Origin: Escherichia coli O157:H7
GTDB taxonomy: Bacteria; Pseudomonadota; Gammaproteobacteria; Enterobacterales; Enterobacteriaceae
Assembly: GCF_013167455.1 (NCBI RefSeq)
Contig: NZ_CP038328.1
Strand: one strand, 5' to 3'
Length of the DNA stretch: 64,000 nt
The position numbers are program-made. Every line of letters starts with the position of its first letter. Positions within the stretch are counted from its first letter, which is position 1. Positions 42,201 to 45,200 of this stretch are shown one piece after another.

Positions 42201-45200
42201 CAGGACGTGATGGACTCGGTACAACGATTGCGGCAACTGGCACAACAAACCGGCTCGCTGAAGTCATCAACCGAACAGAAAGTTATTACCACAACGAAGA
42301 AAACTGTACCGGTAACACAGACAGTCACGGCTCCCGTCATACCATCCAATACCGTTTCAACTGCCAACCCTGTCATTACAGAGCCTGCAACAACCGTCAT
42401 TTCCATTGAGCCCGGCAATCCTGATGTGGTCTATATTCCCAACTACAACCCAACCGTGGTTTACGGGAACTGGGCCAATACTGCGTATCCGCCGGTTTAT
42501 CTGCCACCACCAGCCGGAGAACCGTTTGTTGACAGCTTTGTACGCGGATTCGGCTATAGCATGGGCGTTGCTACCACGTACGCACTATTCAGCAGCATCG
42601 ACTGGGATGACGACGATCATGACCATCATCATCATGACGATGATAATTATCATCACCACGATGGCGGTCATCGTGACGGTAATGGCTGGCAACATAACGG
42701 CGACAACATCAATATCGACGTCAACAATTTCAACCGTATCACCGGTGAGCATCTTACTGATAAGAATATGGCATGGCGGCACAATCCAAACTACCGTAAT
42801 GGTGTGCCCTATCATGATCAGGATATGGCAAAGCGGTTTCATCAAACTGATGTCAACGGCGGAATGAGTGCCACGCAGCTACCTGCTCCAACACGCGACA
42901 GCCAGCGTCAGGCGGCAGCAAGTCAGTTTCAGCAACGAACACACGCCGCCCCCGTCATTACACGAGATACCCAACGTCAGGCAGCGGCACAGCGGTTTAA
43001 TGAAGCTGAACACTATGGGAGCTATGACGACTTCCGCGACTTCAGCCGTCGCCAACCACTGACCCAGCAACAAAAGGACGCCGCTCGTCAGCGTTATCAG
43101 TCAGCTTCTCCTGAGCAGCGCCAGGCAGTTCACGAGAAAATGCAGACTAACCCGCAGAACCAGCAGCGAAGAGAGGCAGCGCGTGAGCGCATTCAGCCCG
43201 CCTCGCCTGAGCAGCGCCAGGCAGTCCGCGAGAAAATGCAGACTAACCCACAGATCCAGCAGCGAAGAGACGCAGCGCGTGAGCGTATTCAGTCAGCCTC
43301 GCCTGAGCAGCGCCAGGTGTTTAAGGAAAAAGTACAGCAGCGCCCACTGAACCAACAGCAACGTGATAACGCCCGCCAGCGTGTTCAATCAGCATCACCT
43401 GAACAACGTCAGGTTTTTCGGGAGAAAGTTCAGGAGAGCCGCCCACAACGTCTAAACGACAGTAACCATACTGCCAGGCTGAATAACGAGCAACGGTCAG
43501 CAGTACGCGAACGTCTCTCTGAGCGCGGAGCAAGGCGACTGGAAAGGTAAATTACAGGCGTAAAAAAAGCGGCGTGGTTAGCCGCTTTTTTAATTGCCGG
43601 ATGTTCCGGCAAACGAAAAATTACTTCTTCTTCGCTTTCGGGTTCGGCAGGTCAGTAATGCTACCTTCGAACACTTCTGCCGCCAGGCCCACAGACTCGT
43701 GCAGAGTCGGGTGCGCGTGGATGGTCAGTGCGATGTCTTCAGCATCACAACCCATTTCAATTGCCAGGCCGATTTCACCCAGCAGCTCGCCGCCGTTAGT
43801 ACCGACAATCGCACCACCGATCACACGGTGAGATTCTTTGTCGAAAATCAGCTTGGTCATACCGTCTGCGCAGTCGGAAGCGATAGCACGACCAGAAGCA
43901 GCCCACGGGAAGGTGGCGGTTTCATAGCTGATGCCTTTCTCTTTCGCTTCTTTCTCAGTCAGACCTACCCATGCAACTTCTGGTTCGGTATAGGCGATGG
44001 ACGGGATAACTTTCGGATCGAAGTAGTGTTTCTTACCGGCGATAACTTCAGCGGCAACGTGACCTTCGTGAACACCTTTGTGTGCCAGCATCGGCTGACC
44101 GACGATATCGCCGATAGCAAAGATGTGCGGTACGTTGGTACGCAGCTGTTTGTCAACGCGGATGAAACCACGGTCGTCAACTTCCACGCCAGCTTTGCCT
44201 GCGTCGAGGTTTTTACCGTTCGGCACACGACCAATCGCTACCAGCACGGCGTCGTAACGCTGCGGTTCAGCTGGTGCTTTTTTGCCTTCCATCGTCACAT
44301 AAATACCGTCTTCTTTCGCTTCAACGGCGGTAACTTTGGTTTCCAGCATCAGGTTGAATTTCTTGCTGATACGCTTGGTGAAGACTTTAACGATGTCTTT
44401 GTCAGCTGCCGGGATAACCTGGTCGAACATTTCAACCACGTCAATCTGTGAACCCAGCGCGTGGTAAACGGTGCCCATTTCCAGACCGATGATACCGCCA
44501 CCCATTACCAGCAGGCGTTCTGGTACTTCTTTCAGTTCCAGCGCGTCAGTAGAGTCCCAGATACGCGGATCTTCATGCGGAATAAACGGCAGTTGAATCG
44601 GGCGAGAACCCGCTGCAATGATCGCGTTGTCGAAGTTGATCACGGTTTTACCGTTCTCACCTTCAACTTCCAGGGTGTTAGCCCCGGTAAATTTACCCAG
44701 ACCGTTGACCACTTTGACTTTGCGGCCTTTCGCCATACCAGCCAGACCACCGGTCAGCTGATTGATCACTTTCTCTTTCCAGGTACGAATCTTGTCGATA
44801 TCGGTTTTCGGTTCGCCGAAGACGATACCGTGTTCAGCCAGCGCTTTGGCTTCTTCGATAACTTTTGCTACGTGCAGCAGTGCTTTAGAAGGGATACAGC
44901 CGACGTTCAGGCAAACACCGCCAAGGGTGTTGTAACGTTCTACGATTACGGTTTCCAGACCTAAATCAGCGCAACGGAAGGCAGCGGAGTAACCTGCGGG
45001 GCCTGCCCCAAGTACCACGACCTGAGTTTTGATTTCAGTACTCATCATGACCTCTATATATTTATCTCCGGCGGGTCTGACGTTTTTTTTATGACGCCCA
45101 TTATCCACCGGGTCGTTCTATCCGTCGGTATTTTACAAAATTGTTAACAATTTTTAAACAACAAACGGCAACCGATTTGTCTATTCGCTAATAACCTCAA

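What the first reader, a model, noticed from the sequence alone, without database searches (positions are those of the whole stretch)
43070..43450. Tandem ~96-bp repeats encoding a reiterated ASPEQRQ motif in the YacH C-terminus
The 3' part of yacH contains about four imperfect tandem copies (~32 aa each, e.g. AARERIQPASPEQRQAVREKMQTNPQIQQRRD). Nucleotide-level tandem repeats are prone to slippage, so repeat number may vary between strains. The function of YacH is not established, as far as I know.
Basis: seen in the sequence. Interest (0 to 1): 0.4.

Follow-up and report, generated by a model that had tools for sequence, protein, structure and literature searches.

The report
Variable 32-residue repeat in YacH tail
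The end of the E. coli gene yacH holds four in-frame 96-base tandem repeats whose number (2 to 5) differs between strains; this is a real but ordinary coding repeat in a poorly understood cell-envelope protein.

Summary
Window 43056-43439 holds four in-register 96-nt (32-codon) units inside yacH (41697-43550, +; 617 aa; Pfam DUF3300). Identity at lag 96 is 0.76, against at most 0.44 in codon shuffles.

The prediction that copy number varies is also confirmed. Two systematic samples of 60 from 5,425 complete E. coli genomes give about half 4-copy and half 3-copy alleles. Two independent 2-copy alleles and one 5-copy allele were also found. Nearly identical haplotypes carry different copy numbers, so changes recur. 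All length changes seen in the repeat are in frame.

Each unit is predicted to form two short helices. Units differ mostly at synonymous sites (dN/dS 0.09-0.44), so the peptide is under constraint. The array lies in a Gln/Arg-rich tail (pI 11.4, net +18) between a conserved core and a conserved terminal helix.

The 32-aa unit is single-copy in Salmonella and was not recognisable in the nine other enterobacterial genomes fetched, whose tails carry their own repeats. No link to CpxP/Spy (LTXXQ), DUF3106 or any solved fold was supported.

My best reading is a length-tolerant, basic, helical spacer or tail that changes by slippage or unequal exchange. Its function is inferred, not shown. Interest is low to moderate.

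The parts
41697..43550 (+). yacH coding sequence (617 aa plus stop). It lies between acnB (divergent, upstream) and lpd (convergent, downstream).
   Evidence: ORF list. Identical to yacH as annotated in RefSeq E. coli O157-type genomes.
41697..41771 (+). Predicted Sec signal peptide (aa 1-25, ...CAASA|GL). This is the only strongly hydrophobic segment in the protein.
   Evidence: The Kyte-Doolittle 19-aa maximum is 2.04 at residue 11. The second candidate (aa 280-298) reaches only 0.78. AlphaFold2 predicts a helix at 9-26. The cleavage site is inferred from the A-S-A motif and was not tested.
41919..42695 (+). DUF3300 (PF11737) domain, aa 75-333.
   Evidence: Pfam E 5.3e-78, 262 bits against a cutoff of 25.
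42606..42671 (+). His/Asp tract DDDDHDHHHHDDDNYHHHDGGH. This is a second, independent length-polymorphic site.
   Evidence: Sequence. Alleles with -13, -7, +2 and +8 aa.
42891..42998 (+). Older diverged duplication, TRDSQRQAAASQF and TRDTQRQAAAQRF, 69 nt apart. It is conserved in other Enterobacteriaceae.
   Evidence: the repeat finder family D2, 74% identity. Seen in the ortholog tails.
43056..43151 (+). Repeat unit 1 (PLTQQQKDAARQRYQSASPEQRQAVHEKMQTN).
43152..43247 (+). Repeat unit 2 (PQNQQRREAARERIQPASPEQRQAVREKMQTN).
43248..43343 (+). Repeat unit 3 (PQIQQRRDAARERIQSASPEQRQVFKEKVQQR).
43344..43439 (+). Repeat unit 4 (PLNQQQRDNARQRVQSASPEQRQVFREKVQES).
43440..43547 (+). Non-repeated end of the tail (RPQRLNDSNHTARLNNEQRSAVRERLSERGARRLER). 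Its terminal helix is conserved across Enterobacteriaceae and weakly resembles half a unit.
   Evidence: Invariant columns L..EQR.A..E...E in the tail alignment. The unit HMM gives a weak partial match at aa 598-615, i-E 0.03. AlphaFold2 predicts a helix at tail residues 199-218.
43563..43592 (.). Hairpin flanked by an A-run and a T-run (AAAAAAAGCGGC-GTGGTTA-GCCGCTTTTTT) in the 70-nt yacH-lpd spacer. It is probably a shared bidirectional terminator.
   Evidence: Read directly from the sequence. The consensus scan did not list it, and function was not tested.

Best explanation
The block is an in-frame coding minisatellite. It consists of four diverged 96-bp units in the 3' part of yacH, which encodes a core but non-essential, probably exported DUF3300 protein of E. 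coli.

Shown here:
- Each 32-residue unit is predicted to form two short alpha-helices, broken at the S-A-S-P and T-N-P turns.
- The units sit in a roughly 220-residue Gln/Arg-rich tail (pI 11.4, net +18). The tail is bracketed by a conserved core and a conserved terminal helix.
- The units are kept at the protein level, because their differences are mostly synonymous.
- Copy number is 2, 3, 4 or 5 in different E. coli strains, with 3 and 4 each in about half of complete genomes. It has changed repeatedly, even within nearly identical haplotypes.
- Every repeat-number allele and every other tail or His/Asp-tract indel I examined is in frame. One strain carries a yacH annotated as frameshifted; I did not locate that frameshift.
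- The unit is single-copy in Salmonella. It was not recognisable in the nine other enterobacterial genomes fetched, whose tails carry different repeats.

Inferred:
- Copies are gained and lost by replication slippage or unequal homologous exchange between neighbouring units. This should be fastest in alleles with freshly duplicated, identical units.
- The changes are tolerated because the units are interchangeable modules of a length-tolerant, positively charged helical spacer or tail. That tail would link the conserved core to the conserved C-terminal helix in the cell envelope.
- Copy number is therefore close to neutral. It is not an on/off switch.
For: Periodicity and frame.

Polymorphism:
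- Gene lengths of 1854, 1758 and 1662 nt, and protein alleles of 553, 585, 617 and 648 aa.

Recurrence:
- STEC309 (3 copies) and E3 (4 copies) differ by only 6 SNPs across the gene.
- Alleles with 3, 4 and 5 copies share one haplotype.
- The two 2-copy alleles lie on different haplotypes and keep different units.
- 4-copy alleles are scattered in a neighbour-joining tree of the non-repeat part of the gene.
- The 4-copy E3 allele has a 95-nt exact repeat, whereas the K-12 and O157 4-copy alleles have only 22-30 nt. This implies at least two separate origins.

Protein-level constraint:
- pS is 0.35-0.82 and pN is 0.13-0.23 between units, giving dN/dS of 0.09-0.44.
- yacH is present in 5425 of 5426 genomes.

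Helical, basic tail:
- AlphaFold2 on the tail alone gives mean pLDDT 63.7, all helical, with two helices per unit. The same helices appear in the full-length model.
- Charge and composition.

Bracketing conserved parts.

Lineage restriction:
- Orthologs.
- Only 19 hits among 1.84 billion representative proteins, mostly Escherichia fragments.
- Salmonella has a single copy.
Against: - No experiment or homology links the tail to any function.
- The predicted tertiary structure is unreliable: pTM 0.24 for the tail, and pLDDT 41 for the full protein.
- Export is inferred only from the N-terminal hydrophobic segment.
- The roughly 50:50 split between 3 and 4 copies could reflect selection rather than near-neutrality.
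- The frequencies come from two systematic samples of 60 rows, not from a full census, and complete genomes are a biased sample of the species.
- Recombination between lineages could mimic some of the apparently recurrent events.
Confidence: 0.55

Rival explanations
1. The repeats are a multivalent binding array. Each (A/S)SPEQRQ-helix unit would be a ligand- or client-binding module, similar to the LTXXQ motifs of the periplasmic CpxP/Spy/ZraP proteins or to DUF3106 repeats. Copy number would then set the valency for a polyanionic envelope component or for an unfolded client.
For: - The motif resembles LTPEQ-type helix caps.
- hhalign pairs RLNNEQRSAVRERLS with Spy NLTDAQKQQIREIMK.
- Pfam gives a weak DUF3106 match, E 0.043.
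- yacH is reported as CpxR-regulated, and its deletion alters protamine survival (PMC9600279).
- The tail is strongly cationic and an acidic His/Asp tract lies upstream.
- An unrelated protein with a hydrophobic N-terminal segment carries eight LTPEQRQ repeats (P0133).
Against: - hhalign probability against Spy is 0.44% over 15 columns.
- Neither the sequence search nor the profile search of the PDB finds Spy, CpxP or ZraP at E up to 10.
- Pfam LTXXQ is not among the matches at E up to 10, and DUF3106 scores 14.7 bits against a cutoff of 24.3.
- Foldseek finds nothing.
- Other genera replace the units with unrelated Q/R-rich repeats. That argues for a role of composition rather than of a specific motif.
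Confidence: 0.15
2. The repeat is an adaptive variation locus. Repeat number would be kept polymorphic by diversifying or balancing selection, for example through immune, phage or antimicrobial-peptide pressure on an exposed protein segment, as in repeat-bearing surface proteins of Gram-positive cocci.
For: - The two major alleles have intermediate frequencies.
- Gains and losses recur.
- A second variable tract (His/Asp) and further in-frame duplications occur in the same gene.
- A knockout phenotype with a cationic peptide has been reported.
Against: - The range is narrow, 2-5 copies.
- Units in most alleles have diverged, with only 22-30 nt of exact repeat, so mutation rates should be low.
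- Units are under purifying selection, not diversifying selection.
- There is no evidence of surface exposure.
- Copy number partly follows lineage: the B2-type alleles sampled mostly have 3 copies, and K-12 and O157 have 4.
Confidence: 0.12
3. The repeat acts at the DNA or RNA level (a regulatory element, an antisense RNA or a mobile repeat) and its coding capacity is incidental.
For: Weak terminator-like hairpins are reported on the minus strand inside the repeats, but their number is no greater than in shuffled sequence.
Against: - The units are exact multiples of three and all variants stay in frame.
- Differences between units are concentrated at synonymous sites.
- Rfam gives no match reaching the gathering score.
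- There are no extra copies elsewhere in the genomes; the extra BLAST places are off-register hits within the same array.
Confidence: 0.02

Closest known systems
Coding minisatellites (VNTRs) in bacterial envelope or surface protein genes, for example the alpha C protein repeats of group B Streptococcus and the spa X-region of Staphylococcus aureus (recalled from general knowledge; not tested here)
   Same: Head-to-tail, in-frame units that are a multiple of three bases long. Copy number differs between strains through recombination or slippage while the reading frame is kept.
   Different: The range here is narrow (2-5). The units have diverged (69-88% nt identity) and are under purifying selection. 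The protein is not shown to be surface-exposed or antigenic. No role in immune escape or typing is known.
LTXXQ-motif periplasmic proteins CpxP, Spy and ZraP (Pfam LTXXQ)
   Same: Envelope location is likely. The helices start with an (L/S)(T/S)PEQ-like cap, and yacH is reported as Cpx-regulated (PMC9600279).
   Different: No detectable homology: hhalign probability 0.44%, and no HMM or PDB hit. The architecture is also different, because here the motif lies in a tandem array at the end of a DUF3300 protein.
DUF3106 (PF11304)
   Same: A weak match to two repeat units with a similar SPEQR-helix pattern.
   Different: 14.7 bits against a gathering cutoff of 24.3, with E 0.043. This is not a member.
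Low-complexity periplasmic spacers such as TolA domain II, the TonB Pro-rich region and the Gln-rich linker of FtsN (recalled from general knowledge)
   Same: Compositionally biased, extended or helical segments that connect functional parts across the envelope. Their exact sequence matters less than length and charge, which fits the replacement of YacH tails by different Q/R-rich or RGG-rich repeats in other taxa.
   Different: No anchoring partner or spanning function is known for YacH. This is an analogy only.
MLVA locus ms11 of the Shigella/E. coli panel (96-bp unit; PMC4644529, PMC8215070)
   Same: The same unit length (96 bp) in the same species.
   Different: It is a different locus. 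Neither ms11 primer matches anywhere in the 64-kb window, even with 3 mismatches allowed.

Membership tests
DUF3300 (PF11737) | Match to the Pfam model above the gathering score | tested here: met
   262.1 bits against a cutoff of 25, aa 75-333, profile positions 2-227 of 227.
Variable-number tandem repeat (coding minisatellite) | Head-to-tail copies with a fixed period, beyond what chance gives | tested here: met
   Four copies of 96 nt. Lag-96 identity is 0.764, against a shuffle maximum of 0.441.
Variable-number tandem repeat (coding minisatellite) | Copy number differs among strains of the species | tested here: met
   Alleles with 2, 3, 4 and 5 copies. About half of genomes have 3 copies and about half have 4.
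Variable-number tandem repeat (coding minisatellite) | Unit length is a multiple of three and the variants keep the frame | tested here: met
   96 = 32 codons. All examined repeat-number alleles translate without stops.
Phase-variable contingency locus (simple-sequence on/off switch) | A homogeneous short-unit tract whose length changes shift the reading frame or the promoter spacing | tested here: not met
   The unit is 96 nt, diverged and in frame. No frameshift alleles at the repeat were seen.
LTXXQ / CpxP-Spy family | Detectable sequence or profile similarity to family members | tested here: not met
   There is no Pfam LTXXQ match at E up to 10. Spy, CpxP and ZraP are absent from the PDB sequence and profile searches at E up to 10. 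hhalign against Spy gives probability 0.44%; the Spy sequence used was verified against 3OEO.
LTXXQ / CpxP-Spy family | Curved all-helical hairpin dimer fold | tested here: inconclusive
   The tail model is helical, but pTM is 0.24. Foldseek against the PDB gives no match with E below 1.
DUF3106 (PF11304) | Match above the gathering score | tested here: not met
   14.7 bits against a cutoff of 24.3.
MLVA locus ms11 | Published primer sites flank the repeat | tested here: not met
   Both primers give 0 matches in the window with up to 3 mismatches allowed.

The most novel reading that the evidence does not exclude
The YacH tail could be a tunable, protamine-like polycationic module whose length (2-5 units) sets how the protein engages anionic envelope components. 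The neighbouring variable His/Asp tract might act as a metal- or pH-sensitive counter-charge. On this reading, the near 50:50 split between 3-copy and 4-copy alleles in E. coli would be maintained by selection, for example by cationic antimicrobial peptides or phage, rather than by drift. That would make yacH a quantitative 'length dial' for envelope properties.
Probability: 0.08. Interest if true: 0.55.

Novelty: new member of a known kind. Interest (0 to 1): 0.25.

Why it matters
The value is modest.
- It documents a common, recurrent, in-frame length polymorphism in a core E. coli gene of unknown function. None of the papers I found in the searchable library describes it.
- It shows that the repeat is an Escherichia-lineage amplification of a unit that is single-copy in Salmonella.
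- It narrows what the tail can be: helical, basic, modular, tolerant of length changes, and not a CpxP/Spy relative.
- The natural alleles with 2 to 5 copies form a ready-made series for testing whether tail length affects the reported delta-yacH phenotypes.
- The locus could serve as a simple agarose-resolvable typing marker.
- It does not reveal a new kind of system.

Tried and rejected
- **CpxP/Spy (LTXXQ) relationship.** This was suggested by the SPEQRQ motif and the reported Cpx regulation. I rejected it as membership because there was no Pfam hit, no PDB sequence or profile hit, and hhalign gave probability 0.44%.
- **DUF3106 and RskA_N.** Both Pfam matches are far below their cutoffs.
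- **Identity with the 96-bp MLVA locus ms11.** Rejected, because both primers are absent from the window.
- **A paralogous second copy in E. coli genomes** (records showing 2-3 'places'). Rejected, because these are off-register alignments within the same array.
- **A transmembrane segment at aa 281-298 that would put the tail in the cytoplasm.** Its hydropathy is only 0.78, against 2.04 for the N-terminal segment. It is unlikely, though this was not tested experimentally.
- **Fold assignment.** The full-length AlphaFold2 model was too poor to use (pLDDT 41). The tail model gave no Foldseek match.
- **An RNA element.** Rfam gave nothing at the gathering score.
- **The search of 1.84 billion representative proteins with the tail.** It returned only 19 hits. 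Apart from Escherichia and Salmonella fragments, there were two unrelated repeat proteins with (L)(S/T)PEQR motifs, which I regard as convergent.
- **Literature.** Many word-start 'yacH' hits were author names such as Yachida and Yachdav.

Full report
**Locus.** The window is Escherichia coli. The region is 100% identical to O157:H7-type chromosomes, where the gene is annotated 'yacH: DUF3300 domain-containing protein'. The ORF is 41697-43550 on the + strand and encodes 617 aa. It lies between acnB (divergent) and lpd-aceF (convergent). Pfam places DUF3300 at aa 75-333 (E 5e-78). NCBIfam has no model for the protein.

**Observation.** Tandem Repeats Finder reports period 96 at 43056-43317, with 2.7 copies and 84% matches. 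The repeat finder extends this to four in-register 96-nt units at 43056-43439, with 79, 73 and 69% identity to the first. The lag-96 identity inside the block is 0.764. In 2000 codon shuffles, the maximum over all lags averaged 0.371 and never exceeded 0.441. The units are in frame, and each carries (A/P)ASPEQRQ.

**Other repeat-like features nearby.**
- An older diverged pair, TRDSQRQAAASQF and TRDTQRQAAAQRF, lies 69 nt apart at 42891-42998.
- The terminal segment NNEQRSAVRERLSE weakly resembles half a unit.

**Does the number vary?** Yes.
- A megablast of the gene against 5,426 complete E. coli genomes finds it in 5,425. Gene lengths were 1854, 1851, 1815, 1782, 1764 and 1758 nt.
- Alignment of fetched alleles shows that the 96-nt difference is the loss or gain of exactly one unit. 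The smaller differences lie in the His/Asp tract.
- Two systematic ('spread') samples of 60 rows across the whole ranking give 28 four-copy, 31 three-copy and 1 two-copy, and 31 four-copy, about 27 three-copy and 2 two-copy. In the second sample, 21 three-copy rows were verified and 6 were partial alignments of the same type.
- A 5-copy allele of 648 aa exists (P0011).
- Two 2-copy alleles of 553 aa lie on different haplotypes and retain different units (strains 1105 and 2015C-3107).

**Are the changes recurrent?**
- STEC309 (3 copies) and E3 (4 copies) differ by only 6 SNPs over the whole gene, plus the unit and a 39-nt His-tract indel.
- Alleles with 3, 4 and 5 copies share one haplotype.
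- The 4-copy state appears in separate places in a neighbour-joining tree built from the non-repeat part of the gene.
- The E3 allele has a 95-nt exact repeat at lag 96, which points to a recent duplication. K-12 and this window have only 30 and 22 nt. The 4-copy state therefore arose at least twice.
- E. albertii and divergent E. coli lineages have 3 units. Three copies is thus the likely ancestral state. This is an inference by parsimony.
- The extra BLAST 'places' in 4-copy genomes are off-register hits within the array, not paralogs.

**Nature of the units.**
- Between units, synonymous sites are heavily substituted (pS 0.35-0.82) while non-synonymous sites are not (pN 0.13-0.23). This gives dN/dS of 0.09-0.44. 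The peptide, not the DNA, is what is conserved.
- Rfam gives nothing at the gathering score.
- AlphaFold2 on the full protein with a 20-sequence alignment is poor (pLDDT 41), but it predicts a string of 12-16-residue helices through the tail.
- The tail alone gives pLDDT 63.7 and pTM 0.24. It is all helical, with two helices per unit broken at SASP and TNP.
- The tertiary arrangement is not reliable, and Foldseek against the PDB finds nothing.
- The tail (aa 395-617) has pI 11.4 and net charge +18, with 19% Gln and 17% Arg. The upstream His/Asp tract has net charge -10.
- The only strongly hydrophobic segment is the N-terminal one, with an A-S-A motif at 23-25. I therefore infer that the protein is exported through Sec.

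**Distribution.**
- Orthologs in the nine other enterobacterial genomes fetched keep the DUF3300 core, a Y(R/G)GYD anchor and the terminal helix. These are Dryocola, Klebsiella, Raoultella, Kluyvera, an unnamed Enterobacteriaceae isolate, two Enterobacter and two Buttiauxella.
- Between the anchor and the terminal helix they carry different Q/R-rich segments. Several have their own repeats of roughly 19 aa, and none has the 32-aa unit.
- A Bradyrhizobium homolog has an RGG/GDR-rich tail instead.
- Salmonella has a single copy of the unit (P0131).
- Searching 1.84 billion representative proteins with the tail gives only 19 hits, mostly Escherichia fragments.
- The array is therefore an Escherichia-lineage amplification inside a fast-evolving, compositionally conserved tail.

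**What is known about YacH.** The library holds no functional study.
- yacH is reported as CpxR-regulated and as repressed by protamine, and a delta-yacH strain survives protamine better (PMC9600279).
- It is down-regulated in a rob mutant (PMC7537768).
- Its deletion slightly raises recombinant protein yield (PMC7376861).
- DUF3300 genes pair with DUF2950 genes in rhizobia (PMC4653623).
- In several S. Typhimurium strains, yacH is a pseudogene through an 8-bp deletion in the His/Asp-coding tract (PMC3391293, PMC10048834).
- No paper I found describes the repeat polymorphism.

**Comparisons tested.**
- The SPEQRQ helix cap recalled the LTXXQ motif of CpxP and Spy. However, Pfam LTXXQ is not matched, the PDB sequence and profile searches do not find Spy, CpxP or ZraP, and hhalign against a verified Spy sequence gives probability 0.44%.
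- DUF3106 is matched only below its threshold.
- The 96-bp MLVA locus ms11 is a different locus.

**Interpretation.** The best-supported reading is an in-frame coding minisatellite. It encodes interchangeable two-helix modules of a basic, length-tolerant tail. It expands and contracts by slippage or unequal exchange, and copy number is close to neutral. Periodicity, polymorphism, recurrence, protein-level constraint, predicted helicity, charge and lineage restriction are shown here. The mutational mechanism, the export of the protein and the spacer role are inferred. The rivals are a multivalent binding array, adaptive variation and a DNA- or RNA-level element. They are less well supported, for the reasons given in their entries.

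**Verdict.** It is an ordinary example of a known kind of feature in an uncharacterised gene, and interest is low to moderate.

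Noticed in passing
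window 42606-42671: The His/Asp tract of YacH (DDDDHDHHHHDDDNYHHHDGGH, built from GAT/GAC/CAT/CAC codons) is a second length-polymorphic site in E. coli, with alleles of -13, -7, +2 and +8 aa. In S. Typhimurium strains, an 8-bp deletion in the equivalent tract makes yacH a pseudogene (PMC3391293, PMC10048834). It may be a metal-binding segment; this was not tested.
   Followed up: partly
window 42891-42929 and 42960-42998: An older diverged 23-aa duplication (TRDSQRQAAASQF and TRDTQRQAAAQRF; 74% nt identity) lies upstream of the main array. It is conserved in other Enterobacteriaceae, unlike the 32-aa units.
   Followed up: partly
P0002, P0057 and P0078 (E. coli YacH alleles): There are further in-frame tandem duplications in the same tail: 45 aa (662-aa allele, seen on 19 contigs), 17 aa inside a unit, and 4 aa (IQQR). 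The whole tail is an indel hotspot.
   Followed up: partly
L005 2083-2323 (CFT073); also L027 and L028; L026 2280-3260: The yacH-lpd spacer is 70 nt in the window. It is about 241 nt in the B2-type strains, where the CFT073 sequence shows an inserted REP-like palindromic element. In strain AR Bank #0349 an IS621 (IS110-family) transposase is inserted there.
   Followed up: partly
window 41544-41559: GTAAAAACTTCGTTAA (GTAAA-N6-GTTAA) lies in the acnB-yacH intergenic region. It resembles a CpxR box with off-consensus spacing, which is of note because yacH is reported as CpxR-regulated.
   Followed up: no
window 43563-43610: A hairpin flanked by an A-run and a T-run (AAAAAAAGCGGC GTGGTTA GCCGCTTTTTT) is followed by a second small hairpin (GCCGGATGTTCCGGC) between the convergent yacH and lpd genes. 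It looks like a shared bidirectional terminator. The consensus scan did not list it.
   Followed up: no
L020 150-1905 (strain 2013C-3492): yacH is annotated as frameshifted (pseudogene) in this complete genome. I did not locate the frameshift, and I cannot say whether it is real or a sequencing error.
   Followed up: no
L006 920-2779 (strain AST85): This is a highly divergent yacH allele (about 74% aa identity, 619 aa) in a genome labelled E. coli. It has 34-aa rather than 32-aa units and an extra insertion of about 25 aa before the array. It probably comes from a cryptic Escherichia lineage or from an imported allele.
   Followed up: no
P0133 and P0136 (metagenome proteins): Two unrelated proteins carry long tandem arrays with (L)(S/T)PEQR helix-cap motifs: eight 34-aa repeats after a hydrophobic N-terminal segment, and more than 20 repeats of about 33 aa in a 1346-aa protein. 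This suggests the motif is a recurrent building block of helical repeats.
   Followed up: no
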